From the NCBI GenBank assembly GCA_018303655.1, contig JAGVXT010000012.1, positions 17,996-81,995 of the forward strand: a DNA stretch of 64,000 nt, given 5' to 3'. Below, piece by piece: positions 15,307 to 48,323 of the stretch. Each line of letters starts with the position of its first letter. Position 1 is the stretch's first letter. The position numbers were made by a program, and so were the translations under genes. The notes below the pieces were generated by a model, which worked only from the letters and a program-made list of their open reading frames with translations, did no database searches and had not been told where the DNA came from. This stretch comes from Candidatus Woesearchaeota archaeon. GTDB lineage: Archaea; Nanobdellota; Nanobdellia; Woesearchaeales; GW2011-AR4.

Positions 15307-17302
<1,996 letters not shown>

Positions 17303-18221: not shown

Positions 18222-18310
18222 AGCCCCGTAGTCTAGCGGTCAAGGATAGGGCCCTCTGGAGTTTTTAACATAGAAAGGCTCTGACGGCAGTTCGAATCTG
18301 CCCGGGGCTA
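18222..18310 (+). tRNA. tRNA-Gln(CUG) with a 16-nt canonical intron
   Basis: Manual cloverleaf: acceptor AGCCCCG/CGGGGCT, anticodon stem GGGCC/GGCTC, loop CTCTGG|A, T-arm GGCAG-TTCGAAT-CTGCC. Anticodon at 18256-18258. Intron about 18260-18275. Confidence 0.8.
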
Positions 18311-19661: not shown

Positions 19662-20056
19662 TTTGCCTAGACTCTAGTTTAATGGTAGATTTTCTTAGGA
19701 ATAAAGGGAATGCAATAGCCCGTATTAGAAGTTTGGAGAACGAAAATATTGTGACAACAATAATAAATGTTTATGAATTAGAGTCTGGAATTTGGGCTAT
19801 GAAAAATGCGAATTATCAAGTCCGTATAGAAAACTTGAGCAAACTCCTTTCCAGGATAGGGTTGCTGCAGTTAGAATCTGAATCGGTCAACAAGTCCGCA
19901 AGGATTTTTGGAGAATTGGGCAGGGAAGGGAAAGTTATAGAGGACATGGATATATTGATTGGAGGCATATGCTTAGTTAATGGATGCAATAAGATAATAA
20001 CGAAAAACGTAAAGCATTTCTCACGAATTAAAGGCTTAAAAGTTGAAACTTATTAG
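19658..20056 (+). CDS. vapC: PIN-domain toxin VapC
   Basis: 132 aa. It has the N-terminal LDSS acidic motif, the right size and coupling to the antitoxin. Confidence 0.7.
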   Translation: MICLDSSLMVDFLRNKGNAIARIRSLENENIVTTIINVYELESGIWAMKNANYQVRIENLSKLLSRIGLLQLESESVNKSARIFGELGREGKVIEDMDILIGGICLVNGCNKIITKNVKHFSRIKGLKVETY

Positions 20057-20275
20057 TAGTAACAGAAAGATTTATATACTAGCTATGCTTTCTAATTGTT
20101 ATGAAACGAGTTGATTGTCTTCATATTGAGTAAAAATAATTCTTGTTTAAATAGTTTCAACTCTAAAAATTCAAAATCAATTTTGAAAATTTATATTGGT
20201 ACTGTAACTTCTGTACATCATCATTGATTTCTTTATTTTTAAAAATTAGTTATAAGACTAAACTACAAATCAAAA

Positions 20276-20302
20276 ACCAGTCGGCGGGCTTAAAGCGCGG
20301 AG
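20276..20302 (+). repeat. conserved leader motif, copy 1 (CGGCGGGCTTAAAGCGCGGAG)
   Basis: Identical 21-nt core to 20728-20748. It ends in a GGAG Shine-Dalgarno 11 nt before ATG 20314. Confidence 0.6.
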
Positions 20303-20313
20303 TAATGGTTAAA

Positions 20314-20634
20314 ATGTCGTACCAAGATGAAAAATTAGAGGCAATTAGCAGAGCTAGAAAAAAATACAATGCTTTGATGGGAGTTTTGCGAAGAGGAGGT
20401 AACCCAGCTATACCGAATGAATTAGCGATAGCCATAGCGGATTACGAGAAATTAGGAGCAGTCCGTAATAGTTATGATTTTGAAACGGCTTTAAAGAGAA
20501 ATTGGAGACAGATAAACATTCCATCCGAATTGAAGCCGAAACTCGAACGAATTGCTATGGAAGATGGTCCTCGATTTTTCCTTGAAGATGAAAGACCGTA
20601 TTGGGAAAGATGGAAGCAGGAGTTAGAACAATAA
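20314..20634 (+). CDS. hypothetical protein
   Basis: ORF track gives 20224..20634. I prefer MSYQDEK at 20314 because of the upstream GGAG. No motif recognised. Confidence 0.45.
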   Translation: MSYQDEKLEAISRARKKYNALMGVLRRGGNPAIPNELAIAIADYEKLGAVRNSYDFETALKRNWRQINIPSELKPKLERIAMEDGPRFFLEDERPYWERWKQELEQ

Positions 20635-20642
20635 AAAAATTT

Positions 20643-20714
20643 GGCAGCAGTATTTCAACGGCAGAATAGACGACTGTGGCTCGTCTGATAGGAGTTCAAT
20701 TCCCCTCTGCTGCC
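20643..20714 (+). tRNA. tRNA-His(GUG) with encoded G-1, no intron
   Basis: G-1 pairs with C73. Acceptor GCAGCAG/CTGCTGC, anticodon arm GACGA-CTGTGGC-TCGTC (anticodon 20676-20678), T-arm AGGAG-TTCAATT-CCCCT with one A-C mismatch. Confidence 0.75.
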
Positions 20715-20721
20715 CTAATAA

Positions 20722-20750
20722 AAAAGCCGGCGGGCTTAAAGCGCGGAGGA
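20722..20750 (+). repeat. conserved leader motif, copy 2
   Basis: AAGCCGGCGGGCTTAAAGCGCGGAGG lies directly after tRNA-His and 10 nt before ATG 20759. Confidence 0.6.
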
Positions 20751-20758
20751 AAATAAGA

Positions 20759-21070
20759 ATGCAACTGAATAAAAGAATTGATGGAATATTGGGTGTAATT
20801 GGAAATAAAGCCTTCCTAGTATATGTAGGAATTCGTGAATGGGCTTCACCTACAGAGGGCGAATATTTAATTGTTGCACCAAGCGGAAACGTTTTGTATA
20901 TAGGACCCTCGCTAAGAGAAAGATTAAGAAAAAGATTAGACGGAGAATATCTGCAAAATCCTGGAGTGCTTTCCTCAAAATCAGCGTATGGAACTTTTTG
21001 GACAGAAGACAAAGTTAGATATGATAGAAAGAGCCCTTACCTTAAAGTTGATATAACGGAAGGTAGGTAA
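20759..21070 (+). CDS. hypothetical protein
   Basis: 103-aa ORF with an SD-like GGAGG upstream. Confidence 0.45.
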   Translation: MQLNKRIDGILGVIGNKAFLVYVGIREWASPTEGEYLIVAPSGNVLYIGPSLRERLRKRLDGEYLQNPGVLSSKSAYGTFWTEDKVRYDRKSPYLKVDITEGR

Positions 21071-21193
21071 AAATGAATGAAAATCAAGGTAATTTAGAGG
21101 ATAAAGCACAAAAAAGTGCTGGTTTAGTTCATAACTCAATTAGAATTTGTTAGAAATAATTACACATCAGAAGAGTTACCGCAAAAATTATTC

Positions 21194-22066
21194 ATGGGCT
21201 TTGGATATAATCCAAACCTGGAAAGAAATGGCGAAAGAATCGATATGTTTAACTTTTTCGCTTGGATGTTAAAACTTCAAGAAATCGGTGTTAGTCAATG
21301 GTTTATTTGGGACGCAAGTGGATTTTATGTTGTAAATAGAATACCAAAGAAAAGAATAGATGGTATTGGAAAACCAAATGGAAAAAAATTACTCGAACTT
21401 ATTATAAACGAGCAAGATGGGCTTGGCTATGGGGAAGGAAGACGCAATGAAGAAAGGAAAGAACTTAAGAAAAATTGGGATTTACGTTCTGTATATCTTA
21501 AGCGTTTAATTAAAATAACAGAAATAAATGGATTATATCTTGATTCTAGAGTTATTTTTAGGACAGACCCAAGATACGCAACAGCATTAGATATTGCTTT
21601 AGATTGTGTTGAAAAACTTAAAAAAGACAATCCAGAGACTTTAGAAAGAATTCTGCCTGCAAACAGTAACAACCCTGCTAGTTGGTTGTATTTGCCACTT
21701 GAGATGGCCGAGGCAATTTACTTTCAGGAAGTAATGGATGTTGAGGGAAAATTTGGGCCAAAAAGTGAGGAATATTTCGATACATTTATTCTTGCAGCAC
21801 AAGAAGGAAGAAAAACACCCTATATGGTTGTTTGGTGTCCTCTAGGCCCAAGTGCCAAGGAGTTTGGTCAACAGAAGCCTGCTTATCTAAGTGACATCGA
21901 AGTTTTATGGACAAAAACGCCAAAGGACTACGTTGCTGATTTATTGGAAAATTCAGTATACCAAAGTTATGTACGACAGTATGCACAAATGTTCCAAAAG
22001 GATGGAGAAACACTCTTGGATTGTGTTATGAGGCTAAAACGTAGACTAAATAGCATTAAAAAATGA
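21194..22066 (+). CDS. hypothetical protein
   Basis: 290-aa ORF. No motif recognised. Confidence 0.5.
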   Translation: MGFGYNPNLERNGERIDMFNFFAWMLKLQEIGVSQWFIWDASGFYVVNRIPKKRIDGIGKPNGKKLLELIINEQDGLGYGEGRRNEERKELKKNWDLRSVYLKRLIKITEINGLYLDSRVIFRTDPRYATALDIALDCVEKLKKDNPETLERILPANSNNPASWLYLPLEMAEAIYFQEVMDVEGKFGPKSEEYFDTFILAAQEGRKTPYMVVWCPLGPSAKEFGQQKPAYLSDIEVLWTKTPKDYVADLLENSVYQSYVRQYAQMFQKDGETLLDCVMRLKRRLNSIKK

Positions 22067-22770
22067 AGCAAAAATACCGAACAATTGGGATACTTGGAGG
22101 AATGGGTCCAGCTGCAACAGCAGATCTTTATAATAGGATAATCAATATATTTCAACAAAGATTTGGTGCGAGGTATGACAAAGATTTTCCTGAAATTGTG
22201 ATAATTAGCTTACCAGTTCCAGATGTAGTAGAAAGTATAGAAAATGAAAATCTAACATTAACAATGCTGACAGATGCCGCAGTGCGATTAGAAAAAATTG
22301 GTTGTTTTATTATAGCCATTCCTTGTAATACAGTACATGCATATATTGGCAAGCTTAGGGGTATTGTGAAAATACCAGTAATAAGCATAATGGAAGAAGT
22401 TGCACTTTATTGTAAGGAAGAGAATTTATTAAATGTCGGTCTATTATCAACAGAATTTACCAAAAATCAAGAATTATATGATTCAGAATTGACTAAATAT
22501 ACAATTAACCTTATTAAATTGAATGATAAAAGACAAAAAATTTTAACCAGATTAATAATGAGTATACTTAATGGAGAGATAAATCAATCAAATAGGGACA
22601 TACTTTTAGAATTAATTAATAATTTTAAAAACAAAAAAGCAGAAGCAATAATACTTGGTTGTACAGAATTGCCATTGTTGATAAATCAGGAGTCCTCCGA
22701 TATTCCACTCATTGATACCATTCAATTATTAGCAGAAGCGTGTGTGAGAGAGTCTACAAAAGTTATTTAA
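22063..22770 (+). CDS. aspartate/glutamate racemase family protein
   Basis: GILGGMGPAATADLY plus the two catalytic Cys contexts IAIPCNTVHAY and ILGCTELPLL. Confidence 0.8.
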   Translation: MKQKYRTIGILGGMGPAATADLYNRIINIFQQRFGARYDKDFPEIVIISLPVPDVVESIENENLTLTMLTDAAVRLEKIGCFIIAIPCNTVHAYIGKLRGIVKIPVISIMEEVALYCKEENLLNVGLLSTEFTKNQELYDSELTKYTINLIKLNDKRQKILTRLIMSILNGEINQSNRDILLELINNFKNKKAEAIILGCTELPLLINQESSDIPLIDTIQLLAEACVRESTKVI

Positions 22771-22794
22771 ATATAATCAAAACAAAGTTACAAA

Positions 22795-24069
22795 ATGAAC
22801 CTTCAAATACCCAAAGGAACGCGAGACTTTTCCCCGGAAGAGAAGATATTGAGGGATAAAATAGTCGGCACTCTAAGGGAAGTCTTTGAGCTTTATGGAT
22901 ATGCTCCTTTGGAAACACCAATCCTTGAGAGATTTGATGTTCTGTCTTCCAAGTATGCCGGCGGTGCAGAGATTTTAAAGGAAACTTTCAGGCTGAAAGA
23001 CCAGGGCAGCAGGGACTTGGGATTAAGATACGATTTAACTGTTCCAATGTGCAGGTACATTGCAATGAATCCAGCTATAAAGATGCCTTTCAAGCGATAT
23101 CAGATAGGGGAGGTTTTCAGGGACGGGCCTGTTGCATCCGCTAGGTACAGGCAGTTCACCCAATGCGATGTTGATGTTGTTGGCTCTTCTTCAATGGCAA
23201 GCGATGCAGAGATTATTGCGTTGATTTATGTTGCATTCTGCAAGTTTAACATGGAAGTCAATATCAAGGTGAATAACAGAAAAATGCTGAATGATGTCCT
23301 TGACTATTGCGGTATTGAGAAAAGCAGGCTGGAAAATGTTATTTTATCCGTAGATAAGCTGGAAAAATTTGGAATTAATGTTGTCAGGAATGAATTAAAA
23401 GAGCAAAAGATTGATGTCGGTAAAATAGACAAAATACTAAACATAATAATCATCAAAGGAAGCAACAATGAGAAACTGTCGCAATTAAAAAAAATATTGA
23501 AAGATTCCCAAGGCTTAAAAGAAATTGAAGAATTGCTGAATTATCTGAAAAATCTTGATTTTGAGGCTGATTTTGATGTTTCGCTTGCAAGAGGGCTTGC
23601 ATATTACACAGGCACCGTCATTGAAGCATTCCTGAAAAACAGCAATGTTAAAAGCTCTGTTTGCGCAGGCGGCAGATATGACAACATGATTGGGGCTTTC
23701 CTTGGCAAGGGAAGCTATCCGGCTGTTGGGGTAAGCTTCGGAGTTGACAGGATATATGATGCTTTGGCTGAAAAGCAAAAGGCAAAGCAAAAAACAAACA
23801 CAAAAGTTTACATAATTCCGATAAAAACTATAAATGAAAGCATGAAAATAGCGCAGCAGATGAGGGACGCTGGCATCAACACGGACATTGACTCGATGGA
23901 CAAGGGCCCAAGCAAGAACCTTGAATATGCGAATTCGCTTGGCATTCCTTATGTTGTTTTTGTCGGAAAGAAAGAGCTGCAGGACAATAAGTTAAAGCTG
24001 AGGGACATGAAAAGCGGGAAAGAGGAATTGCTGGAGTTTAAGGAAATCGTCAATAAATTAAAAGATTAA
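22795..24069 (+). CDS. hisS: histidine--tRNA ligase
   Basis: 424 aa. PKGTRDF, LRYDLTVP, FKRYQIGEVFR, RYRQF.QCD, GGRYD and the anticodon-binding C-terminus. Confidence 0.9.
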   Translation: MNLQIPKGTRDFSPEEKILRDKIVGTLREVFELYGYAPLETPILERFDVLSSKYAGGAEILKETFRLKDQGSRDLGLRYDLTVPMCRYIAMNPAIKMPFKRYQIGEVFRDGPVASARYRQFTQCDVDVVGSSSMASDAEIIALIYVAFCKFNMEVNIKVNNRKMLNDVLDYCGIEKSRLENVILSVDKLEKFGINVVRNELKEQKIDVGKIDKILNIIIIKGSNNEKLSQLKKILKDSQGLKEIEELLNYLKNLDFEADFDVSLARGLAYYTGTVIEAFLKNSNVKSSVCAGGRYDNMIGAFLGKGSYPAVGVSFGVDRIYDALAEKQKAKQKTNTKVYIIPIKTINESMKIAQQMRDAGINTDIDSMDKGPSKNLEYANSLGIPYVVFVGKKELQDNKLKLRDMKSGKEELLEFKEIVNKLKD

Positions 24070-24100
24070 ATTTATAAATATCTAATTTTTCGCTCAATGA

Positions 24101-24661
24101 ATGCCAAATTTAACTTACAATATAATTGTACAAGCAGATAGGGTCGGCTTTAATTATTGGGAAAGAATTCGGGATTTGGCCAAAGCTTATGGAATCCAAG
24201 GCTCATTAATTGTATGCAATACTAATCGTGTAACAGTAGTCAGTTTTAAAGAAAGGCCAATAGAAACTAAAGTATTCAAAGGCAAGCCATATGGCATGAT
24301 GCCCGTAGCAGTTAACGATTATGAGGCAGGCATCCCGCAAACAGACACGCCGCGGTGGGTTATTGCACCGCCTAGTGTTATTGATAAAGTAAGTGAAGGG
24401 CTGCTAAGAAATGCTGGAGTGTTAAAAGGAAGTAAATTCTTTTATGTAGAAATTGGGGCTGTTTATGACAACAATGGTGGTCCAATTAATTATGGCCAAG
24501 CAACACTTCCCGAAGTAAAAAGCCTAGGAGCTGATGATGTGGCTGATAAGATAACTGATGACAGATTAGCCAAATTACTTGAAACTGCCCGAATTCAGGA
24601 GGTTAGAACCGACCCCAAAAGGCCAAATTTAGCAGAATTAATTGAAAAAGTTTCCAGATAA
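24101..24661 (+). CDS. hypothetical protein
   Basis: 186-aa ORF. No motif recognised. Confidence 0.45.
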   Translation: MPNLTYNIIVQADRVGFNYWERIRDLAKAYGIQGSLIVCNTNRVTVVSFKERPIETKVFKGKPYGMMPVAVNDYEAGIPQTDTPRWVIAPPSVIDKVSEGLLRNAGVLKGSKFFYVEIGAVYDNNGGPINYGQATLPEVKSLGADDVADKITDDRLAKLLETARIQEVRTDPKRPNLAELIEKVSR

Positions 24662-24680
24662 TTAAATAGTTAAAATCAAC

Positions 24681-25571
24681 CTATGGTTTGGTCAGCACAA
24701 CAACTTCCCCCTCATCATCAATCAAGATAGAATGCTCTGCCTGGGTTACGATGCCTTTATTGACCTCAACTAATGGCGGAAACTGGTGGATCATGCCAAG
24801 CTGCGTTAATTCCCTTAATGCAAAGTTTGCCTTTGCCCCGAATTTTCTTGTAAGCCATCTTTTTGCAAACGGCAATCTTTCATATGTTTCAATTTCCTTC
24901 AAAACTTCCCTTGTTATCGGGCTTCTTACAGGCCTTTTATGCTCGAGCATGAATACAGTCGGCATGCCGCTGTCAACAACAACCCCAGAGCCTGTTGTTG
25001 CAAACGGCTCTACTGCAAAAGCCATTCCTTTCTGCAGCTTTGTTTTATTTCCATCATCAATGTTTGGAATTGTCGGCTTTGTGTGTATGCTGTACAAATC
25101 CAACCCGTGCCCTGATAAATTCCTTACAGGATTGTACCCGTAGCTTTTGATTGTGTCATTTATTATTTTTCCAATTTCCCTTAACTCTGTGCCAACATTT
25201 ATTATCTTTAATGCTTCTTCCAATGCCTTCTGCGCAGCCCTGACCAGGCCATTGTACTTTCCCAATAAATCAATTGTGTACGCATTGTCGCCGATTGCGC
25301 CATCAACATGAACCCCTAAATCCAAACTTACAACCTGCTCGTCAAAAACGGTTTTGTCATCTTCTTCCACGCAGAAATGGGCAGCAATCTCGTTGCATGA
25401 AACCTGGACAGGAAATGCCGGCTTTCCCCCCAATTCATAAATTTTTTTTTCAATCAATTCTGTTGCTTCAAGAATTGAATTGCCCTTTTTGATTAATGAT
25501 TTCCCGTACTCTAGGGCTTCAGCGGATATTCTGCCTGCTTTGATGTAGTTTTGCTTTGTTTGTATATCCAT
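24681..25571 (-). CDS. map: type II methionine aminopeptidase
   Basis: 296 aa. Pita-bread fold landmarks with the archaeal-type insertion: FPVQVS.NE.AAH, DLGVHVDG, GHG and AQAEHSILI. Confidence 0.85.
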   Translation of the reverse strand: MDIQTKQNYIKAGRISAEALEYGKSLIKKGNSILEATELIEKKIYELGGKPAFPVQVSCNEIAAHFCVEEDDKTVFDEQVVSLDLGVHVDGAIGDNAYTIDLLGKYNGLVRAAQKALEEALKIINVGTELREIGKIINDTIKSYGYNPVRNLSGHGLDLYSIHTKPTIPNIDDGNKTKLQKGMAFAVEPFATTGSGVVVDSGMPTVFMLEHKRPVRSPITREVLKEIETYERLPFAKRWLTRKFGAKANFALRELTQLGMIHQFPPLVEVNKGIVTQAEHSILIDDEGEVVVLTKP

Positions 25572-25611
25572 TAGAAAAAAAATTGAAATGGATTATTTAA
25601 AGGTTTCCGCC

Positions 25612-25625
25612 GAAAGATTTATATA
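25612..25625 (+). promoter_or_regulatory. BRE/TATA (GAAAGATTTATATA)
   Basis: The same 14-mer occurs upstream of vapB. It lies about 40 nt before ATG 25667. Confidence 0.4.
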
Positions 25626-25666
25626 CTTAATATATAATAAGTATATAAGTGATTATATGACTGAAG

Positions 25667-25884
25667 TTACGACAATTCAGCTGGACAAGAGAATTGTGGC
25701 AAAGCTCAAGAAAGCCAAGGAGCACCCTAGGCAGACTTATAATGAACTTCTTGACAAGGCGGTTTCTGTCTTTATGGCAGTCAAAAAAGTAAATAGCTAT
25801 GACGAATTCCTTCATAAGGTGCAACAGCCGAAAATGAGGGAATTATGGGGCAATAAGGAAGACGAGGCATGGGAGAGTGTATAA
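25667..25884 (+). CDS. putative antitoxin partner of the MazF/PemK-like toxin
   Basis: Reads MTEVTTIQLDKRIVAKLKKAKEHPRQTYNELLDKAV. It overlaps the downstream toxin by 8 nt. ORF track start is 25588. Confidence 0.55.
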
Positions 25885-26182
25885 TGCAGGGGACGTGATT
25901 CTCGCACAGGTACAATTTACAGACACTTTTGAGGTTAAAACAAGGCCTGCTGTAGTTCTTTTTGAAGAGTATGGCAATATAGTAGTTGCTGGCGTCACAA
26001 GCAACACTGAAATGGAAGGCATACCATTGACAAAAAAAGAAGGCGCTGTAAAGGACAGCATCATAAAAGTAAATTATATCTTTACAATCTCGGAAAAAAT
26101 GGTGAAAAAAAGATTGTTTTCTTTATCTCAAGAGAAGAAAAGGATTTTGATATCTGAATTCGTAAAAAGGCTGAATAAATAA
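25877..26182 (+). CDS. PemK/MazF-like toxin
   Basis: 101 aa. GDVILAQVQFTD....KTRPAVVL....NIVVAGVTSN is typical of the family. Confidence 0.65.
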   Translation: MYNAGDVILAQVQFTDTFEVKTRPAVVLFEEYGNIVVAGVTSNTEMEGIPLTKKEGAVKDSIIKVNYIFTISEKMVKKRLFSLSQEKKRILISEFVKRLNK

Positions 26183-26478
26183 GCATATTTATGGGTTTTT
26201 GGGGATGGAGTAAGTTGGTTGAAAGTTCATTTAACGTACAATTTTAAGTGAGGTTTTTCTCCTCGAAAAATTCCCCTCGTGAGCAAAATTGAGGCAACCC
26301 ACAAGTTTCAGAGCGGATAAATTTTGTAGAGCTGAAAAAATGTTAGGTTGAGTGAGCGATGCCTTTGATGGCTGAGCGAACGAACTGGCTTTGATGCCCG
26401 ATTTCGTGAGGATTTAGTTGTGAGTGTCGCCCAAATCCGCTTTGATGCGGATTTGGATTTACTTCTCATATTATTTTA

Positions 26479-26541
26479 GTGGAAGAGCGGCTTTTTGTAA
26501 AAAAGTTTCTGAAACTAGTTCGAAAACCCGCCGTAAATCCC
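26479..26541 (-). repeat. left inverted copy of the island-flanking element
   Basis: The reverse complement reads GGGATTTACG-GCGGGTTTTCGAA-CTAGTTTCAGAAAC...ACAAAAAGCCGCTCTTCCAC. The first 23 nt are identical to the split right copy at 31015-31055. Confidence 0.75.
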
Positions 26542-26591
26542 AGTTGTTGCTGTAGTATATCTGTAGCAAATAGCACTGGACATTTGTGGGC

Positions 26592-26603
26592 AAGGTTTAT
26601 AAA
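26592..26603 (+). promoter_or_regulatory. TATA-like box (AAGGTTTATAAA) and SD (AGGGAG, 26631-26636) for the restriction gene
   Basis: Both lie upstream of ATG 26641. Confidence 0.4.
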
Positions 26604-26640
26604 TCAGTTCCATATAATATATCAAAATAAAGGGAGTGAA

Positions 26641-27498
26641 ATGCCAAACAATGTTTTAAGAGGAATTTTGAATATAGCTTCATTTAAGAATAATAACCTT
26701 AAAAGCTATGCTTCTACTTACTTAAACAGGATTAACGCAGTTGGAGAGCAATTAGAATTTTATGTAAAAGACGCCATTGCAACATCTTTTAAGCTACCTT
26801 ATGATAAAAAGCCGGAAGTATATTCTAAAGTATTTTCTTGGCTCGGAACCCAAAACCATCCGCCAGACATTATCATAAAAAATGGTGATGCTTTTGAGAT
26901 TAAAAAGATTGAAACCATAAAAGGCTCACTTCAATTAAACAGCTCTTCTCCAAAAAATAAGCTTCTTGCCACCGATTCTAGGATAACGGCAGACTGCAAA
27001 AAATGCGATGGCGGAAATTGGAAAGAAAAAGACTTATTTTATGTGATTGGGAATGCAAAAGGTGGGGAAATAAGCTACTTATTTTTTGTGCATGGGGTTT
27101 GCTATGCTGCTGACCATAAAGTTTATGAAAAAATCCACGAGCCTATAAAAAAAGAAGTGGATTCCGTCCTTGATTCTCTTGGATTGGAAAAAGGCGAAAC
27201 TGTAGAATTGGGCAAAGTTAGGAGAGTTGACCCGCTTGGAATAACTGAATTGAGAATAAGGGGAATGTGGAGCATAGAAAATCCACTTAATGTTTATGAT
27301 GGATTGTGCGAGCTTGGAAAAAATAAATTTCATCTTTTTGCCTTATTGAGCAAAGAGAAATATCTTTCTTACTCTAAAGAAGACATCAAAGAATTAGAAT
27401 CCCATAAAGAAATTTCCGTTAAAGACGTAAAAATCAAAAGCCCAAATAACCCTGCTAATCTAATGGAGGCAAAGCTAATAGCTTTTGTAATAAAATGA
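26641..27498 (+). CDS. type II restriction endonuclease candidate (PD-(D/E)xK)
   Basis: 285 aa counted from MPNNVL. HPPDIIIKNGDAFEIKK fits PD...ExK. It overlaps the m5C methyltransferase start by 4 nt. The ORF-track N-terminal extension (26479-26640) runs through the repeat element. Confidence 0.65.
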   Translation: MPNNVLRGILNIASFKNNNLKSYASTYLNRINAVGEQLEFYVKDAIATSFKLPYDKKPEVYSKVFSWLGTQNHPPDIIIKNGDAFEIKKIETIKGSLQLNSSSPKNKLLATDSRITADCKKCDGGNWKEKDLFYVIGNAKGGEISYLFFVHGVCYAADHKVYEKIHEPIKKEVDSVLDSLGLEKGETVELGKVRRVDPLGITELRIRGMWSIENPLNVYDGLCELGKNKFHLFALLSKEKYLSYSKEDIKELESHKEISVKDVKIKSPNNPANLMEAKLIAFVIK

Positions 27499-28535
27499 AA
27501 ATTGCATCATTTTTTTCAGGAGCCGGAGGATTAGATTTAGGATTTACTAATGCAGGCTTTAAGCTAGCTTTTGCAAATGACAATTGGGAAGGCTGCTGGG
27601 AAACATTTGAGAAAAACCATAAAATACCTATTAATAAAAAATCAATTACTAAAATAAAGGCTGATGAAGTTCCTGATGTAGTAGGATTTGTTGGAGGGCC
27701 GCCTTGCCAAAGCTGGAGCCTTGCAGGAGCCATGAGGGGCATAAATGACCCAAGAGGCCAAGTTTTTTATGATTATGTTAGGCTTATTAAAGAAAAAAAG
27801 CCATCATTCTTTTTAGCTGAAAACGTTGCAGGGCTATTATCAAGTAGCCACTATCTCGAATTTATGAAAATTGTTAATGCTTTTAAGCAAATTGGGTATA
27901 ATGTTTCCTTTAAACTGCTTGATGCGAATGATTATGGAGTTCCGCAAGAGAGAAAAAGGGTAATTGTAGTGGGCTACCATGAGAAATTAGGAAAAAAATT
28001 TGAGTTTCCAAGCCCATTAAGCCAGAAGCCAGCACTAAAAGATGCAATCGCCGATTTGCCAGAGGCAATTCCAGCAAGCCATTACAATAAAACCAACGGA
28101 AAATTAGAAATTTATAACCATGAGTACATGAATGGGGGATTTTCTACTATTTATATGTCAAGAAATAGGGTACGAAGCTGGAATGAGCCTTCATTTACAA
28201 TTCAGGCAGGAGGTCGGCATGCTCCTTGCCACCCCAAAGCCCCAAAAATGAGGCTTATAGGGAAAGATAAAAGAGAATTTATTAAAGGCAAAGAGAATCT
28301 TTATAGAAGATTGTCAGTAAGGGAATGTGCCAGAATACAAACCTTTCCAGATGATTTTGTATTTTATTATAGCAATGTTGCAGATGGGTATAAGATGATA
28401 GGCAATGCCGTCCCTGTTAAATTGGCTGAAGCGCTGGCAAAGCAAATTATGAAAGACCTTAAAGGAATAAGACCACAAGAAAAATGGCAGACAAGTTCAG
28501 CAAAGCAAAAAGAAGCGCAATTATGTCCAGAATAA
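27495..28535 (+). CDS. DNA (cytosine-5)-methyltransferase, M.HaeIII-like (predicted GGCC)
   Basis: Carries FSGAGGLDLGF, GGPPCQSWS, ENV, QERKRV and GNAVPV. By my recollection the variable target-recognition region (NHEY..STI.MSRNRVR.WNEP.FT.QA.GR....HP.AP.M....GKE.LYRRL.VRECAR.Q.FPDDF) follows M.HaeIII closely. Confidence 0.85.
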   Translation: MKIASFFSGAGGLDLGFTNAGFKLAFANDNWEGCWETFEKNHKIPINKKSITKIKADEVPDVVGFVGGPPCQSWSLAGAMRGINDPRGQVFYDYVRLIKEKKPSFFLAENVAGLLSSSHYLEFMKIVNAFKQIGYNVSFKLLDANDYGVPQERKRVIVVGYHEKLGKKFEFPSPLSQKPALKDAIADLPEAIPASHYNKTNGKLEIYNHEYMNGGFSTIYMSRNRVRSWNEPSFTIQAGGRHAPCHPKAPKMRLIGKDKREFIKGKENLYRRLSVRECARIQTFPDDFVFYYSNVADGYKMIGNAVPVKLAEALAKQIMKDLKGIRPQEKWQTSSAKQKEAQLCPE

Positions 28536-28885
28536 GGTCTAAAAATACTTCTTTAGAGGTTGAGTTCAGAAAACTCCTTTGGAAAAATGGGCTTGGTCAC
28601 TATCGCATTCATTATAACTTGCCTGGAAAGCCCGATATTGTTTATGTTTCCAAAAAAATTGTAGTTTTTCTTGATGGCGACTTTTGGCATGGCTACAATT
28701 GGAAAAAACTAGGCAAAGTTCCGCCTAGAAAGTACTGGCAGAAGAAAATACAGAAAAACATCGACAGAGCGAAAAAGTATAATAAACTGCTGAGAAAAGA
28801 TGGGTGGAAAGTTTTACGATTTTGGGAGCATGATGTGAAGAAAAATTCAAATAGTTGTATTAAACATATAATAGATAGATATTAA
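28484..28885 (+). CDS. vsr: very-short-patch repair endonuclease
   Basis: RSAIMSRIRSKNTSLE and PDIVY....VVFLDGDFWHG. It overlaps the methyltransferase 3' end in another frame. Confidence 0.8.
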   Translation: MADKFSKAKRSAIMSRIRSKNTSLEVEFRKLLWKNGLGHYRIHYNLPGKPDIVYVSKKIVVFLDGDFWHGYNWKKLGKVPPRKYWQKKIQKNIDRAKKYNKLLRKDGWKVLRFWEHDVKKNSNSCIKHIIDRY

Positions 28886-29123
28886 TAAATTCAGTAAAAC
28901 TATTATTATATAAAACAGATATATTAAGCATTTATATATCAAAATTTCTAATAATAAGTATAAATAATCAATATTTAAAATGTTGATAACTCACTTAAAT
29001 ATCTAACTTAAGACTATAAAATGAATAGATTTTTAAATAAGGAGTATACATCATAGAAAATAATAGTTATATTGAACTAATTATTTAATTTTAATATCTC
29101 GTCTATAAATTCAGCAAAAGCAT

Positions 29124-29139
29124 ACATTTATATATAAAA
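29124..29139 (+). promoter_or_regulatory. TATA-like box (ACATTTATATATAAAA) and SD (AAGGTGG, 29158-29164) of the three-gene cassette
   Basis: Both lie in the 285-nt AT-rich spacer before ATG 29171. Confidence 0.4.
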
Positions 29140-29170
29140 TATCCTTACCATATATCTAAGGTGGTTTTAA

Positions 29171-29737
29171 ATGATAGATGAATTAAAAGAAAAAATTAAA
29201 CTTGCTCAGCAAGCAGTTGAAGATGTAATTGACCCTAAGCTTAAAGAGAAAGCTTTCGAGGTTGTATTAAATAATTTGATTAGTGGAAATAATCAACTAG
29301 TGCCAATACTACAAACTGATAGCCAGCCGATTCAAACTCAAAATAAGGTTACGAACGACAAGCTGTACAATTTTCTTAATGCAACAAACGTTACAGAACA
29401 ACAAATAACAAATATTTTTGATTTAGATGGGGAGTCAATTCGAATTATAGGGGCCATTCCTGGTAATACTGACAGCAAAAAGCAAAGAAATGCTACTTTA
29501 ATTTTGCTTACTGCGAAACATTATATAAAAAACGAAAGGGAGATTAATGTACCAGAACTTAAAAAAACACTAGAAGATTTAGGTATCAGATCATTGGTAA
29601 ATTTATCCACTAACCTTAAAGGCTTTGAGAATTTTATAATAATGAAGGGGAGTAAAGGTAGTAAGAGCACTTCTTACAGGATTACAAATCCGGGTGTAAC
29701 CCAAGGAGTCGAACTGATAAAGGGAATGGTGGCATAA
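29171..29737 (+). CDS. unknown protein A (N-terminal helix, Q/N linker, wHTH-like C-terminus)
   Basis: 188 aa. The N-terminus (AVEDVIDPKLKEKAFEVVLNNLISG) is paralogous to protein B. The C-terminus (VPELKKTLEDLGI...SYRITNPG) looks like a winged helix. Confidence 0.6.
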   Translation: MIDELKEKIKLAQQAVEDVIDPKLKEKAFEVVLNNLISGNNQLVPILQTDSQPIQTQNKVTNDKLYNFLNATNVTEQQITNIFDLDGESIRIIGAIPGNTDSKKQRNATLILLTAKHYIKNEREINVPELKKTLEDLGIRSLVNLSTNLKGFENFIIMKGSKGSKSTSYRITNPGVTQGVELIKGMVA

Positions 29738-29738
29738 A

Positions 29739-30230
29739 ATGAATAAAGAAGAGATAGGGGAAATATTAAAACAAGCTGAAAAACTAGTTGCTGATAATAT
29801 AAAAGATGAGTCACTAAAAGTAAAAGCATTTGAGTTGGCTTATAATGAGCTGTTGGGTAAAATAATGCCTCCTGTTACTAAAGAAAGCCATACATTGACT
29901 TCCGGACAACACCAGCAAGTTAAAAAATCAGAATCTATTGTTGAACATTGTAAACGATTTAAGATAAATAACGAAATAGATAGGACCCTAATATTTGCCT
30001 CATTTCTTGAGAAACAAGAAGGGCAAAATTATTTCATCACAAAAAATATTCAAGATTGTTATTTTAAGGCAAAGGAAAAACAACCACCCAACATTCCTGA
30101 TAAAATTAGTAAAAACATCAGCAAGGGTTTTATTATGGAGTCAAATGAAAAACCTAAATCTGGGAAAGGGTATGTGCTAACAAGAACTGGCGAGGAAGAA
30201 GTTAAAAAGCTGGAACTTAAAAATGAATGA
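29739..30230 (+). CDS. unknown protein B, paralog of protein A
   Basis: 163 aa. LVADNIKDESLKVKAFELAYNELLGK matches the A N-terminus. The C-terminus (..GYVLTRTGEEEV) is wHTH-like. It starts 1 nt after the A stop. Confidence 0.6.
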   Translation: MNKEEIGEILKQAEKLVADNIKDESLKVKAFELAYNELLGKIMPPVTKESHTLTSGQHQQVKKSESIVEHCKRFKINNEIDRTLIFASFLEKQEGQNYFITKNIQDCYFKAKEKQPPNIPDKISKNISKGFIMESNEKPKSGKGYVLTRTGEEEVKKLELKNE

Positions 30231-30978
30231 AATAAAACAAATTCTTTCAGAAAAAATAGACCCAGTTATCACGGATAAGCTTATAGCTGAGTATATAAAT
30301 GTAAAAAAATATCATTACTATAATGATATTGAAAAAACAATTCTTCACGGAGCAAGATTTGCAGAATGTTCTTTAGCCGCTATAAAAAATCAATTAGACT
30401 CTAGCATTGTAAATCTAAATGAGTTACATTTTGAAGCAGTGTTTAATGAAATCACTTCAAAACCAAAGAAAAATTCAAACGATGAGCAATTGGCCCTTGT
30501 TATTCCCAATGTTTTAAAGACTATATATTCAATAAGAAATAAAAAAAGAGTTACTCATATGAAGGATGCTTTACCTGATAAGATTGATGCAGAATATGTT
30601 TTATCTGCATGTAACTGGACAATTTCACAATTTTTAATAATTATCAAAGGTATGGATGTCAATTTAATCTATAGATTACTAGAATCAATAAATTCAAAAC
30701 AAATACCCATAATAGAAGAATTTGAAAAGAATGAGATTAAAGTACTCACTTCTGATTTAAGTTTTAAGGACGAATTATTGGTGGTGTTATACAAATATTC
30801 AAGTAGAATTAGTGTGGCTCAATTAAATTTACTTTTAAAGCCAAAAAATAAATCTTATGTTACTACTAATCTTAGTAGGTTAAACATAGAAAGATTAATT
30901 CAACTTAATAATGATGGAGCAATTATCACAAAGTTAGGCATAGACTACATTGAGTCAAAAGTTCTAGTTATAAAATAA
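30223..30978 (+). CDS. unknown protein C (HEPN-like N-terminal domain plus C-terminal wHTH)
   Basis: 251 aa. GARFAECSLAAIK followed by YSIRNKKRVTH fits the Rx4-6H HEPN signature. The C-terminus (SVAQLNLLL....VTTNLSRLNIERLIQ) is wHTH-like. It overlaps B by 8 nt. Confidence 0.55.
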   Translation: MNEIKQILSEKIDPVITDKLIAEYINVKKYHYYNDIEKTILHGARFAECSLAAIKNQLDSSIVNLNELHFEAVFNEITSKPKKNSNDEQLALVIPNVLKTIYSIRNKKRVTHMKDALPDKIDAEYVLSACNWTISQFLIIIKGMDVNLIYRLLESINSKQIPIIEEFEKNEIKVLTSDLSFKDELLVVLYKYSSRISVAQLNLLLKPKNKSYVTTNLSRLNIERLIQLNNDGAIITKLGIDYIESKVLVIK

Positions 30979-31013
30979 ATTTTGTTATGGGGTTTAACGT
31001 AGGCGACAACAAA

Positions 31014-31118
31014 GGGGATTTACGTTTTAGTATCAACGATAAGCGGGTTTTCGAATTGCATTTAATCCTAGTTTAAGACCTGCGTATAAATTTTCAAATT
31101 ATACGAAAGTTCTTCCAC
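31014..31118 (+). repeat. right inverted copy of the island-flanking element
   Basis: GGGGATTTACG[18-nt insert]GCGGGTTTTCGAA[12-nt insert]CTAGTTTAAGACC...GAAAGTTCTTCCAC. Collinear with the reverse complement of 26479-26541. Confidence 0.75.
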
Positions 31119-31197
31119 GACCTGAAAGGAAAAACCATAATGAAGAAGCGGCACGAACGAACATGTAACACAGGTTTAATGAACTTTCTACAATATT

Positions 31198-48316: not shown

Positions 48317-48323
48317 ATTGTAG

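What the first reader, a model, noticed from the sequence alone, without database searches (positions are those of the whole stretch)
26479..31118. Inverted copies of a dispersed element bracket a 4.6-kb cargo island (R-M-Vsr plus three unknown genes)
- **Seen, core repeat:** plus-strand 26519-26541 (TTCGAAAACCCGCCGTAAATCCC) is the exact reverse complement of 31015-31024 plus 31043-31055 (GGGATTTACG / GCGGGTTTTCGAA).
- **Seen, indels and extent:** the right copy carries an 18-nt and a 12-nt insertion. Collinear similarity continues outward (CTAGTTT[C/A]AGA, then AAAG..TCTTCCAC) to 26479 and 31118.
- **Seen, content:** the six genes between the copies are co-oriented, and the right half (28.9-31.2 kb) is much more AT-rich than its surroundings. 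The flanks are core genes: map plus a small TA pair on the left, aCPSF1 on the right.
- **Seen, no recombinase:** no transposase or integrase lies inside.
- **Inference:** the island was mobilised or captured between two copies of a repeat family, in a composite or MITE-flanked manner. It is a defence island.
Basis: partly seen in the sequence, partly recalled or inferred. Interest (0 to 1): 0.8.

Follow-up and report, generated by a model that had tools for sequence, protein, structure and literature searches.

The report
Repeat-bounded defence cassette in Woesearchaeota
A 4.9-kb block of defence genes in a DPANN (Woesearchaeota) archaeon has been inserted into the loop of a terminator hairpin. 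It is one member of an apparently undescribed family of gene cassettes bounded by structured inverted repeats, which carry varied cargo and encode no recombinase of their own.

Summary
26519-26541 is the exact reverse complement of 31015-31024 plus 31043-31055, with the stated 18-nt and 12-nt insertions. The two arms are each other's best match in the window by a wide margin. The gene content is as described: a GGCC restriction-modification pair (NgoPII-type endonuclease, HaeIII-type methylase), Vsr, and three unknown genes. The AT-rich right half is also real.

Two corrections.
- The inserted block runs from 26236 to 31169 (4,934 bp). A relative (L003) has an intact 13-bp terminator hairpin between MazF and aCPSF1. 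In the window its two arms sit at 26221-26235 and 31174-31188. The repeats therefore lie 243 bp and 51 bp inside the true ends.
- The repeat has no further copy in this window. It is a family elsewhere: 42 metagenome contigs carry the 23-nt core. A hairpin-bearing "L" end and an "R" end bracket 1.5-4.5 kb of unrelated cargo, sometimes in tandem. Cargo includes HEPN-MNT, PIN, GNAT, GmrSD and restriction-modification genes.

Junctions consistently fall after (T)AAC, and no target duplication longer than 4 bp is seen. No recombinase was found in the island or in about 58 kb around it.

Best reading: a non-autonomous, site-specific cassette, like an integron cassette or a dif module, moved in trans. 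It is not two MITE copies that captured genes. The enzyme and mechanism are inferred.

The parts
26221..26235 (+). Left arm of the split target hairpin (GAAAGTTCATTTAAC). This is the last host sequence before the insertion and it ends in TAAC.
   Evidence: It is complementary (14/15) to 31174-31188. L003:2712-2802 has the uninterrupted hairpin AAGTTCGTTTAAC-ACAA-GTTAAACGAACTT between MazF and aCPSF1 ([I16], 17, 19, 31).
26236..26340 (+). 'E100' module, the left terminal segment of the inserted element (it starts GTACAAT). In other family members it is a long imperfect hairpin. The window copy is degenerate.
   Evidence: Copies in 7 metagenome contigs (11 aligned with the window's) all begin right after (T/A)AAC, in at least 5 unrelated upstream contexts. 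The ssDNA fold z-score is -5.4 in L122 and -4.0 in L127, but -1.3 for the window copy. Five apical pairs show compensatory changes. The module is missing from strain variant L082.
26341..26478 (+). Hairpin-rich spacer with three stem-loops that share the loop TTTGAT, including the 10-bp stem CCAAATCCGC/GCGGATTTGG at 26430-26457. A 40-bp insertion/deletion polymorphism lies after about 26399.
   Evidence: Sequence. The whole left non-coding region 26236-26560 folds with z -3.7. The 53-aa ORF at 26308-26469(-) has no family hit and is probably spurious.
26479..26556 (+). L-type end, the left arm of the inverted repeat. The invariant core TTCGAAAACCCGCCGTAAATCCC is at 26519-26541. Upstream are a hairpin (CTTTTTT/AAAAAAG) and a mini-hairpin (TTTC-T-GAAA).
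   Evidence: There are 23 L-type copies in the family. The upstream hairpin co-varies: GCCCC/GGGGC, TGAG/CTCA, GCCAG/CTGGC, ACCCC/GGGGT.
26570..26609 (+). Promoter-like motif CACTGGACATTTGTGGGCAAGG followed by TTTATAAA, about 35 nt upstream of the endonuclease start codon.
   Evidence: The same motif lies upstream of unrelated sequences in other Woesearchaeota loci (L010, L028, L030). The promoter function is inferred.
26641..27498 (+). Type II restriction endonuclease of the NgoPII family (GGCC).
   Evidence: Pfam RE_NgoPII, E 8.6e-84. PADLOC REase_II. More than 2,300 homologues exist, and those that carry a name are labelled Nanoarchaeia, Nanoarchaeota or Woesearchaeota, with one Margulisbacteria.
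27495..28535 (+). C5 cytosine DNA methyltransferase, a full-length homologue of M.HaeIII (GGCC).
   Evidence: Pfam DNA_methylase, E 2.4e-96. PDB 1dct M.HaeIII, E 1.2e-116 over residues 1-319.
28484..28885 (+). Vsr very-short-patch T:G mismatch endonuclease. It repairs deamination of the 5-methylcytosine made by the methylase.
   Evidence: Pfam Vsr, E 6.2e-24. PADLOC Vsr. The role is from established knowledge of Dcm/Vsr.
28886..29170 (.). Spacer of 17.5% GC between two cargo sub-modules. Sister elements diverge from the window here.
   Evidence: GC. L111, L098 and L132 match the window at about 85-90% only up to about 28846-28872 and then carry other genes. There is an internal 30-nt inverted repeat, 28883-28912 / 29054-29083.
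29171..29737 (+). U1, 188 aa, unknown. Its C-terminal part resembles a repeated winged-helix-like domain.
   Evidence: No Pfam, NCBIfam, PHROGs or PADLOC hit. Residues 108-187 are 36% identical to both halves of the 247-aa protein that precedes the U3 homologue in L091.
29739..30230 (+). U2, 163 aa, unknown.
   Evidence: No significant family hit.
30223..30978 (+). U3, 251 aa. It belongs to an unannotated family of about 250-aa proteins. It has an N-terminal helical domain with invariant R105 and D122 and near-invariant H112 (an Rx6H motif, HEPN-like), and a C-terminal winged helix.
   Evidence: 505 representatives at E<=1e-3. The C-terminal wHTH matches PDB profiles at E about 1e-3. The AF2 model has pLDDT 77, and Foldseek gives only non-significant partial matches to HEPN domains. 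The HEPN assignment is tentative.
30985..31066 (-). R-type end, the right arm of the inverted repeat. The core is split by an 18-nt insert (31015-31024 plus 31043-31055). It ends in GATTAAATGCAA, where the family consensus is GTTAAATGCAA.
   Evidence: There are 27 R-type copies, about 84-91% identical to the window over this stretch while the cargo differs. nhmmer E 6.9e-24.
31067..31169 (-). Outer right-end segment. 31067-31118 extends the inverted repeat (TCTTAAACTAG ... GTGGAAGA). 31119-31169 is terminal and ends in CATGTAAC.
   Evidence: Alignment. The same outer end, 90% identical, is found in sister element L132, ending CATATAAC followed by unrelated DNA.
31170..31188 (+). Host target: hairpin loop ACAG (31170-31173) and right arm GTTTAATGAACTTTC (31174-31188), just downstream of the aCPSF1 stop codon.
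   Evidence: The same right half-site is preceded by different DNA that also ends in TAAC in L001; L009 and L026 show TAAC followed by divergent right arms.

Best explanation
Window 26236-31169 is one integrated copy of a non-autonomous, cassette-type mobile element of groundwater Woesearchaeota.

Anatomy:
- A structured left non-coding region of about 400 nt: the E100 hairpin module, extra hairpins, then the L-type end.
- Cargo.
- An R-type end of about 190 nt.
- The L and R ends are inverted variants of one sequence: GTTAAATGC ... TTCGAAAACCCGC ... CGTAAATCCC ... GTTGTCGCC.

Cargo: a GGCC restriction-modification pair with Vsr, in a host-like GC range. This is joined through a 17.5%-GC spacer to a more AT-rich three-gene module (U1-U3, probably a HEPN-like protein with winged-helix partners).

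Shown:
- The block sits exactly in the loop of the terminator hairpin between the convergent MazF and aCPSF1 genes, right after TTTAAC.
- The element's own right end is TGTAAC.
- Every family junction examined falls after (T/A)AAC.
- Cargo differs between family members, and its orientation relative to the ends is not fixed.
- Cassettes occur in tandem.
- Where two cassettes abut, the junction (ATTTAAC-N4-GTTAAAT) has the same dyad architecture as the empty target (GTTTAAC-ACAA-GTTAAAC).

Inferred:
- The element moves as a unit by site-specific recombination at a short TAAC (AAC/GTT) core. The site is dyad-symmetric or hairpin-forming.
- The recombinase is encoded elsewhere in the genome, as with integron cassettes (IntI) or Acinetobacter dif modules (XerC/D).
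- The conserved, structured ends are the recombinase's recognition and accessory sites.

Once inserted, the element gives the host GGCC restriction, methylation with mismatch repair, and probably a second defence or toxin module.
For: Insertion and ends:
- Empty site with an intact 13-bp hairpin in L003, also in L011 and L012.
- Split arms at 26221-26235 and 31174-31188.
- Strain variant L082 joins a different left flank (ParE ... CGTATAAC) to the same GTACAAT terminus.
- Sister element L132 has the same right end and then unrelated DNA after TATAAC.
- In another species (L001), different DNA ending in TAAC abuts the same right half-site; L009 and L026 show TAAC next to divergent right arms.

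Family:
- 42 metagenome contigs carry the core.
- L...R pairs bracket 1.5-3.1 kb of unrelated cargo in L096, L099, L105, L112/113, L121, L122/127, L124 and L135, against 4.5 kb in the window.
- Tandem units are seen in L122 and L127.
- All aligned E100 copies start after AAC.
- The R end terminates at ...TTGCATTTAAC.

Structure: the hairpin upstream of the L core co-varies. The E100 hairpin has z -5.4 and 5 compensatory pairs. The left non-coding region has z -3.7.

Not promoter or terminator modules: cargo genes face either way relative to the L end.

Not generic: no other copy in the window and only 2 weak hits in 80 related loci.

No recombinase: no hit for U1-U3. No integrase or transposase family appears in the gene tables that cover about 58 kb of the window.

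Cargo of family members: HEPN+MNT, PIN, GNAT, an N6/N4 methylase, HD plus an RT fragment, and HEPN_RiboL-PSP plus GmrSD. The leading functions reported for archaeal integron cassettes are the same types: TA, R-M and acetyltransferases (PMC9668308).
Against: - No recombinase has been identified, so the mechanism is an inference from junction anatomy only.
- TAAC at both junctions fits a 4-bp target duplication equally well.
- The window element's outermost ends (GTACAAT ... CATGTAAC) form only a weak dyad.
- Its E100 hairpin is degenerate, so this copy may be immobile.
- Breakpoints between strains are not confined to the TAAC junction. L137/L138 share the window sequence up to 26385 and then differ. 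Cargo also varies inside the brackets after Vsr. Homologous or illegitimate recombination therefore contributes too.
- The only possible second right-hand context of this same island (L085) is probably an IS inserted 4 nt beyond its end.
- No circular form or excision product was observed.
- Metagenome contigs can be chimeric at repeats.
Confidence: 0.55

Rival explanations
1. Two copies of a dispersed MITE or IS-like repeat flanked the site or landed on either side of it. The genes between them were mobilised as a composite element by a transposase acting on the outer ends.
For: A significant inverted repeat brackets co-oriented cargo that has no recombinase. The repeat is a multi-copy family in metagenomes. 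A DDE transposase (DUF772 + DDE_Tnp_1) lies next to family ends in L124 and L125.
Against: - The empty site (L003) has neither repeat copy.
- The arms are subterminal, 243 bp and 51 bp inside the real ends.
- L and R are two distinct end types that always pair as L...R. They are not interchangeable copies with ends of their own.
- There is no duplication longer than TAAC, and the hairpin arms and loop are each present once.
- The outermost termini are not inverted repeats.
- The termini of the neighbouring IS (CTTCAGCCTGTCCCACAATT) do not resemble the family ends.
Confidence: 0.08
2. An IS200/IS605-like (HUH/Y1) single-strand transposition product: a cargo-carrying, non-autonomous 'PATE-like' element. 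It inserts 3' of the tetranucleotide TAAC and is cleaved after its own terminal TAAC. Subterminal hairpins guide a TnpA supplied in trans.
For: Insertion directly 3' of TAAC, with the element ending in TAAC, no terminal inverted repeat at the very ends and no duplication. In family members the E100 hairpin foot lies 18 nt from the left cleavage point. From my own recollection of the literature, not checked here, this is similar to the ~19 nt in IS608. The target lies in a hairpin loop, which would be single-stranded when extruded.
Against: - No Y1 transposase or TnpB was found in the window or in any scanned cargo or flank.
- IS200/IS605 ends carry similar hairpins on the same strand. Here the conserved ends are reverse complements of each other.
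- The right non-coding region is not significantly structured (z +1.7).
- Elements of 2-5 kb with multi-gene cargo are unusual for that family (my own knowledge).
Confidence: 0.12
3. A canonical integron gene cassette (IntI/attC chemistry) that has integrated at a secondary, attG-like GTT site outside an integron. The E100 hairpin would be its attC.
For: - Every junction has AAC on one strand, which is GTT on the other. From my own knowledge of the integron literature, this is the only invariant triplet of attC/attI.
- ATTTAAC and GTTAAAT fit RYYYAAC and GTTRRRY.
- E100 is an imperfect hairpin of about 85 nt with all bulges on one arm.
- Cargo types match those reported for archaeal integrons, which include Nanoarchaeota (PMC9668308).
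- Tandem arrays exist.
Against: - The crossover point lies 18 nt outside the E100 hairpin foot, not in an R' box at its base.
- Most E100 copies lack a GTT box at the far side.
- Cassettes are multi-gene and their cargo orientation varies.
- Each cassette also has the large L/R inverted ends, which integron cassettes lack.
- No IntI was found.
- The attC covariance model could not be run here.
Confidence: 0.1
4. Not a mobile element. The L, R and E100 modules are conserved structured regulatory or insulating sequences, or a non-coding RNA, of a variable genomic region. Cargo is swapped between strains by homologous recombination across these shared modules.
For: Strain breakpoints occur inside the modules and not only at TAAC: 26385 in L137/L138, a 40-bp insertion/deletion, and loss of E100 in L082. 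Cargo also varies inside the brackets after Vsr. The ends are far better conserved than the cargo. The left region is strongly structured. The aCPSF1|map gap is a variable hotspot in many species.
Against: - The first arrival in a site that lacked any module (the L003-type hairpin) cannot be explained by homology.
- Junctions are nucleotide-precise after TAAC in unrelated contexts.
- Cargo orientation is not fixed, so the ends are not simply a promoter and a terminator.
- There is no Rfam match.
- The modules are absent from most intergenic regions.
Confidence: 0.15

Closest known systems
Integron gene cassettes and attC arrays without an integrase (CALINs), including those reported in Archaea (Ghaly et al. 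2022, PMC9668308)
   Same: Promoter-poor, recombinase-less cassettes. They occur in tandem arrays. Junctions fall at an AAC/GTT triplet within RYYYAAC/GTTRRRY-like boxes. Imperfect hairpins sit at cassette boundaries. The cargo is dominated by TA, R-M and acetyltransferase genes. Insertion at hairpin-like secondary sites is known for bacterial integrons.
   Different: The boundary module is about 350-400 nt, with long inverted L and R arms around the hairpin. The crossover lies outside the hairpin foot. Cassettes hold up to six genes in either orientation. No IntI or attI was seen. The attC models were not run.
Acinetobacter dif modules (pdif / XerC-XerD modules; PMC6449649, PMC13141974)
   Same: Discrete gene modules (TA, resistance or adaptive genes) bounded by inversely oriented recombination sites. 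They have no recombinase of their own and are shuffled between replicons by a host-encoded enzyme. Insertion sequences target the sites there (PMC10132070). Here a DDE IS abuts the family ends in L124 and L125.
   Different: pdif sites are 28 bp (11-6-11) and are shared between neighbouring modules. Here each cassette has its own 60-110-nt structured ends plus an E100 module. The host is an archaeon and the elements are chromosomal. No Xer binding consensus was tested.
IS200/IS605 family and its non-autonomous PATE derivatives
   Same: No terminal inverted repeats at the extreme ends and no target duplication. Insertion is immediately 3' of a specific tetranucleotide. A subterminal hairpin lies about 18 nt from the left end.
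   Different: The conserved ends are inverted rather than lying on the same strand. No Y1 or TnpB gene was found. The cargo is large and variable.
MITEs and composite or 'TIR-bounded cargo' transposons
   Same: Inverted repeats bracket passenger genes, the elements are non-autonomous, and the family is multi-copy.
   Different: The repeats are subterminal, there are two distinct end types, no duplication beyond TAAC is seen, the target is site-specific, and no matching transposase is known.
NgoPII / HaeIII-type GGCC restriction-modification systems with an associated Vsr
   Same: RE_NgoPII endonuclease, an M.HaeIII homologue (E 1e-116) and Vsr in one operon. This is the classic arrangement for a C5-methylase system.
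   Different: None of note. It is ordinary cargo. Named homologues are mostly labelled Nanoarchaeia or Woesearchaeota, in several other contexts that lack these repeats.

Membership tests
   The L and R arms are systematically different half-elements. L has the upstream hairpin and R has a split core. They occur as L...R pairs. The empty site has neither.
   Hairpin arms and loop are each present once. Only TAAC occurs at both junctions, which could be a 4-bp duplication or a shared crossover core.
   The true ends are 26236 and 31169. The repeat arms start 243 bp and 51 bp inside them.
Integron gene cassette | Recombination junction at the conserved AAC/GTT triplet of RYYYAAC / GTTRRRY boxes | tested here: met
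   All aligned E100 copies (7 metagenome contigs plus the window), the R-type ends (...ATTTAAC), the window junctions (TTTAAC|, TGTAAC|) and L132, L001, L009 and L026 all have AAC at the junction.
Integron gene cassette | One attC (55-141 nt imperfect hairpin with R''/L''-L'/R' boxes; crossover in R' at the hairpin base) at the cassette 3' end | tested here: not met
   The E100 hairpin exists. However, the junction lies 18 nt outside its foot and most copies have no GTT box on the other side. The attC covariance models were not available.
Integron gene cassette | Integron integrase (IntI) and attI adjacent to the array | tested here: not met
   No Phage_integrase-type hit appears in gene tables covering about 58 kb of the window or in the scanned metagenome loci. 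The rest of the genome was not available.
dif (Xer) modules | Modules bounded by inversely oriented copies of a recombination site, with no recombinase inside | tested here: met
   L(+)...R(-) brackets in the window and in 10 contigs. The cargo has no recombinase.
dif (Xer) modules | Sites are 28-bp XerC-6 nt-XerD (archaeal XerA: 11-6-11) dif-like sequences | not testable with these tools
   Cassette junctions read as dyads, e.g. TTGCATTTAA-CTCTTG-TTAAATGC. The dif site and XerA of this lineage are unknown, so nothing can be compared.
IS200/IS605 / PATE | Insertion 3' of a fixed tetranucleotide, no TIR at the termini, no duplication | tested here: met
   TAAC| at every left junction, and the termini GTACAAT / CATGTAAC are not inverted repeats.
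IS200/IS605 / PATE | Similar subterminal hairpins on the same strand at both ends, and a Y1 TnpA in the genome | tested here: not met
   The conserved ends are reverse complements. The right end is not structured (z +1.7). No Y1_Tnp or OrfB hit was found anywhere scanned.
Type II R-M (GGCC) with Vsr | REase of a GGCC family + C5 methylase homologous to M.HaeIII + Vsr, co-oriented and overlapping | tested here: met
   The genes overlap at 27495-27498 and 28484-28535.
HEPN nuclease (for U3) | Four-helix HEPN fold with a conserved Rx4-6H motif | tested here: inconclusive
   R105 is invariant and H112 at least 90% conserved (Rx6H) in 73 family members. No Pfam HEPN hit. Foldseek matches to HEPN domains are partial, with E>0.1.

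The most novel reading that the evidence does not exclude
Woesearchaeota (DPANN) carry a previously undescribed cassette-recombination system, functionally analogous to integrons or dif modules. Multi-gene defence and toxin cassettes would circularise through a composite recombination module of about 400 nt (R arm, E100 hairpin, accessory hairpins, L arm). They would then integrate at TAAC within dyad or hairpin sites such as terminators. The work would be done by a host recombinase of unknown type, possibly guided by the structured DNA or by an RNA transcribed from it.
Probability: 0.35. Interest if true: 0.8.

Novelty: new variant of a known kind. Interest (0 to 1): 0.62.

Why it matters
DPANN archaea have tiny genomes and depend on hosts, and little is known about how they acquire and exchange defence genes. 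This locus gives a nucleotide-precise example with an empty site, an occupied site and sister elements. A family of recombinase-less cassettes shuffles restriction-modification, HEPN/MNT, PIN, GmrSD and unknown genes between strains.

If the trans-acting enzyme is found, it would define a new archaeal gene-capture platform and could yield a new site-specific recombinase with a hairpin-type target. The conserved 23-nt core and the L, R and E100 profiles also give a practical probe for finding variable defence cassettes, and the unknown genes they carry, in metagenomes.

If instead the modules turn out to be only recombination-prone regulatory sequences, the finding is a well-documented hotspot and of modest interest.

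Tried and rejected
- Rfam found only tRNAs, both at gathering thresholds on the window and at permissive thresholds on the island and seven family loci. The modules match no known RNA family.
- tRNA-adjacent integration is rejected. The nearest tRNAs are at 20644 and 48324.
- The viral-contig scan for the core found nothing.
- Searching the 80 Woesearchaeota aCPSF1 loci gave no exact core. Profiles gave only two weak hits, in L033 and L036.
- I first took L085 as a second genomic context for the island. This was withdrawn. Its flank starts 4 nt beyond the island end and shares a 15-nt motif with the terminus of a DDE IS seen in L124 and L125.
- The hunt for a recombinase failed. About 50 proteins from cargo and flanks, plus three gene tables around the window, were scanned with Pfam. 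The only hits were one IS5-like DDE transposase outside a family end (L125) and, in unrelated R-M contexts, a Rep_1 with a tyrosine integrase (L152).
- The 17-19-nt insert in R ends is not a conserved hairpin. About half the variants do not fold.
- A promoter/terminator reading of the ends is rejected, because cargo genes face either way.
- The left hairpin arm is not retained in L001, L009 or L026. Only the window shows both split halves.
- U3 as a bona fide HEPN protein could not be established.

Full report

Yes. TTCGAAAACCCGCCGTAAATCCC at 26519-26541 (+) is the exact reverse complement of 31043-31055 plus 31015-31024. These two blocks are separated in the right copy by an 18-nt insert.

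- a further 6 of 8 matches inward, to 26549 and 31007;
- TCTGAAACTAG / TCTTAAACTAG;
- a 12-nt insert, GATTAAATGCAA;
- GTGGAAGA at 26479 and 31118.

Its score is 52.5. Against 2000 shuffles the null is 20.2 +/- 2.9 (maximum 40). Against 2732 random pieces of the window it is 21.4 +/- 3.5 (maximum 47.5). In a scan of the whole window each arm's best non-self match is the other arm, and the next place scores 32.5.

The gene content is as stated (Pfam):
- left flank: map, a DUF7557/MazF pair;
- island: an RE_NgoPII endonuclease, a C5 methylase, Vsr, and three ORFs with no family hit in Pfam, NCBIfam, PHROGs or PADLOC;
- right flank: aCPSF1/FttA.

The methylase is a full-length M.HaeIII homologue (E 1e-116), so the system most likely recognises GGCC. 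GC content is 36.0% for R-M-Vsr, 17.5% for the 285-bp spacer, 30.2% for U1-U3, and 37-42% for the flanks.

**2. Where the inserted DNA really begins and ends**

aCPSF1 is 92-94% identical to proteins of Woesearchaeota/Nanoarchaeia MAGs. Across 80 such loci the order aCPSF1 then map is conserved, with a gap of 50 bp to 7.5 kb. None of those loci has homologues of the six island genes.

L003 has aCPSF1, then 90 bp, then MazF-antitoxin-map. Those 90 bp contain a perfect 13-bp hairpin, AAGTTCGTTTAAC-ACAA-GTTAAACGAACTT. L011 and L012 have equivalent intact hairpins.

In the window the left arm (GAAAGTTCATTTAAC) is at 26221-26235. The loop and right arm (ACAG GTTTAATGAACTTTC) are at 31170-31188. The insertion is therefore 26236-31169, or 4,934 bp. 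It lies between TTTAAC and the loop, and it ends in TGTAAC. Arms and loop are each present once, so there is no duplication beyond the TAAC found at both junctions.

Independent support:
- Strain variant L082 joins a different left flank (a ParE gene ... CGTATAAC) to the same terminus GTACAAT.
- Sister element L132 has the same right end at 90% identity. It ends CATATAAC and then continues into unrelated DNA.
- In another species (L001), different DNA that also ends in TAAC abuts the same right half-site. L009 and L026 show TAAC next to right arms that have diverged.
- Many short contigs that carry this exact MazF break at 26240-26280.

I first read L085 as a second genomic context. I withdrew that. 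Its foreign flank starts 4 nt beyond the island end and shares a 15-nt motif with the terminus of an IS.

**3. Is the repeat a family?**

Not within this window. Exact, mismatch-tolerant and profile searches find only the two arms.

A metagenome scan for the split core returned 42 contigs. Their record names suggest groundwater samples, which is my inference from the names. Aligning about 50 copies shows that both arms are variants of one sequence: GTTAAATGC - [x] - TTCGAAAACCCGC - [y] - CGTAAATCCC - nGTTGTCGCC.
- L-type ends fill x with a hairpin plus a TTTCG-TC-CGAAA mini-hairpin. In y they have nothing or CGTA.
- R-type ends have an empty x and a 17-19-nt y.
- The L hairpin keeps its position while its stem sequence changes in a compensatory way: GCCCC/GGGGC, TGAG/CTCA, GCCAG/CTGGC, ACCCC/GGGGT, and in the window TTTTTT/AAAAAA.

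In ten contigs both ends are present, always as L(+)...R(-). They bracket 1.5-3.1 kb of cargo whose DNA is unrelated to the window, while the ends are about 77-97% identical to it.

Cargo:
- recurrent HEPN+MNT pairs;
- PIN, GNAT, an NHL-repeat protein, a KaiC-like ATPase and an AAA ATPase (the last lies beside an R end with no L end in view);
- an N6/N4 methylase;
- in elements that also carry this R-M-Vsr at about 90% identity, an HD protein with an RT fragment (L098), or HEPN_RiboL-PSP with GmrSD (L132).

Cargo genes face either way relative to the L end, so the ends are not simply a promoter and a terminator.

A third module, E100, corresponds to window 26236-26340. It recurs at about 75% identity. 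In other members it is an imperfect hairpin of about 85 nt with all bulges on one arm (z -5.4 and -4.0) and five compensatory pairs. The window copy is weak (z -1.3).

Every aligned E100 copy starts immediately after (T/A)AAC, whatever lies upstream. In L122, L127 and L135 that upstream sequence is an R end finishing ...TTGCATTTAAC, which makes tandem cassettes. Where an R end directly meets the next L end, the junction reads GCATTTAAT-TCTT-GTTAAATGC (L128) or GCGTATAAC-CCTT-GTTAAATGC (L124). This is the same dyad architecture as the empty target GTTTAAC-ACAA-GTTAAAC.

**4. What moves it?**

Nothing recognisable inside.
- U1-U3 have no family hits.
- U3 belongs to an unannotated family (505 representatives). 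It has invariant R105 and D122, near-invariant H112, and a C-terminal winged helix.
- The structure model (pLDDT 77) gives only non-significant partial matches to HEPN domains.
- A U3 homologue (48% identical) lies three genes away from a large serine recombinase in an unrelated archaeal element. That is a lead, not evidence.
- Gene tables covering about 58 kb of the window show no integrase or transposase family.
- Among about 50 scanned proteins from family loci and from the aCPSF1|map gaps of other species, the only transposase is an IS5-like DDE enzyme. It lies outside a family end, and its own terminus is unrelated to the family ends.

**5. Most likely mechanism**

Shown:
- nucleotide-precise insertion after TAAC in a hairpin loop;
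- an element end that is also TAAC;
- consistent AAC junctions across the family;
- tandem units;
- target and inter-cassette junctions that share a dyad architecture;
- conserved and structurally constrained ends;
- variable cargo;
- no resident recombinase.

Inferred: site-specific recombination in trans at a short AAC/GTT-containing core, as for integron cassettes or Xer-dependent dif modules. In a circular form the R arm, E100 and L arm would be contiguous as one composite site. I put this at about 0.55.

It is not a canonical integron cassette:
- the junction is 18 nt outside the E100 hairpin;
- most copies lack the second box;
- cassettes are multi-gene;
- no IntI was seen.

Single-strand HUH transposition (IS200/IS605-like) fits the TAAC rule and the lack of duplication. 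It does not fit the inverted ends or the absence of a Y1 gene.

The composite/MITE model fails on the empty site, on the two distinct end types and on the subterminal position of the repeats.

A purely homologous cassette-exchange model explains several strain breakpoints:
- 26385 in L137/L138;
- the 40-bp insertion/deletion;
- loss of E100 in L082;
- the switch of co-cargo after Vsr.

It probably operates alongside site-specific recombination. It cannot explain arrival at a site that had no module.

**6. The cargo**

The R-M-Vsr operon is ordinary. The named homologues at 68-94% identity are almost all labelled Nanoarchaeia or Woesearchaeota. They occur in other contexts without these repeats: next to Rep_1 and a tyrosine integrase in L152, with GmrSD in L155, and as R-M-Vsr alone in L154.

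Its leader carries a promoter-like motif that is shared with other Woesearchaeota loci. The U1-U3 half is more AT-rich and is replaced by other defence genes in sister elements. The island is therefore a mosaic of at least two cargo modules inside one bracket. 'Defence island' is fair for the R-M part and plausible but untested for U1-U3.

**7. Novelty**

I found no Rfam family and no paper describing these modules. The general kind is known: recombinase-less cassettes bounded by recombination sites. The architecture and the host lineage are not. I rate it a new variant of a known kind, with interest 0.62. The main uncertainty is the unidentified enzyme.

Noticed in passing
whole window: GATC is strongly depleted: 40 observed against 171 (Markov) or 222 (composition) expected. 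GGCC is moderately depleted: 90 against 155 Markov-expected. This suggests long-term exposure to GATC- and GGCC-specific restriction.
   Followed up: no
window 26570-26609; L010:13874-13903, L028:4232-4265, L030:4711-4747: A conserved motif, CACTGGACATTTGyGnGnrAGGTwTATAAA, precedes the endonuclease gene. It also precedes unrelated sequences in other Woesearchaeota. In L028 and L030 it is followed by similar non-coding stretches (GAAAAAGAGrACACGC...), possibly a lineage-typical strong promoter in front of an RNA gene.
   Followed up: partly
L124 (right flank of its R end), L125:2-1240, L085:4654-4820: An IS5-like DDE insertion sequence (DUF772 + DDE_Tnp_1; terminus CTTCAGCCTGTCCCACAATT) sits 0-1 nt after the TAAC end of a family element in L124, and beside an E100 module in L125. 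A related 15-nt motif starts 4 nt after the island end in strain variant L085. The IS may target these junctions, much as IS1202-family elements target pdif sites.
   Followed up: partly
L137/L138 (match window 19877-26385): Nine contigs carry the identical map-antitoxin-MazF block and E100. They diverge from the window after 26385 into other DNA: two unknown genes, then purN and purH, with a degenerate L-type end. This is either another cassette at the same site, a module-mediated rearrangement, or an assembly chimera.
   Followed up: partly
L001, L004, L009, L011, L017, L030, L080 (gap between aCPSF1 and map): The aCPSF1|map gap is a variable hotspot across Woesearchaeota species. Its contents include a TIR-domain (CAP12/Pycsar-type) effector (L009), a Fic/DOC protein (L080), an SNase-domain protein (L001), UPF0182 and a Mur-ligase-like gene. 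No recombinase was found.
   Followed up: partly
L091-L094: The closest U3 homologue (48% identical) lies in another archaeal lineage. It follows a two-domain U1-like protein and sits upstream of two unknown genes, a large serine recombinase and a histone-fold gene, which looks like an integrated element.
   Followed up: no
window 18222-18310, 48323-48412, 52163-52247: The tRNA callers disagree. ARAGORN reports an 89-nt tRNA-Gln and a 90-nt tRNA with an undetermined anticodon, and misses 52163-52247. Rfam calls 48324-48412 and 52163-52247 but not 18222-18310. The long ones may contain introns.
   Followed up: no
window about 26399/26400: The window lacks a 40-bp segment (GCCTAAAATGTGTTATATGAATTAAGCCGCAACGAATGAG) that is present in otherwise 99.5%-identical copies L081, L082 and L084. 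The left non-coding region contains repeated sub-motifs (AAAATGTTAGGyGAGTGAGC, TTTGAT loops) that may drive such insertions and deletions.
   Followed up: no
L152:7013-9904 and 15332-16486: A 79%-identical NgoPII-type R-M pair in another metagenome contig sits directly downstream of a rolling-circle Rep_1 gene and about 6.5 kb from a tyrosine integrase. The same R-M therefore also travels on an integrated plasmid-like element.
   Followed up: no
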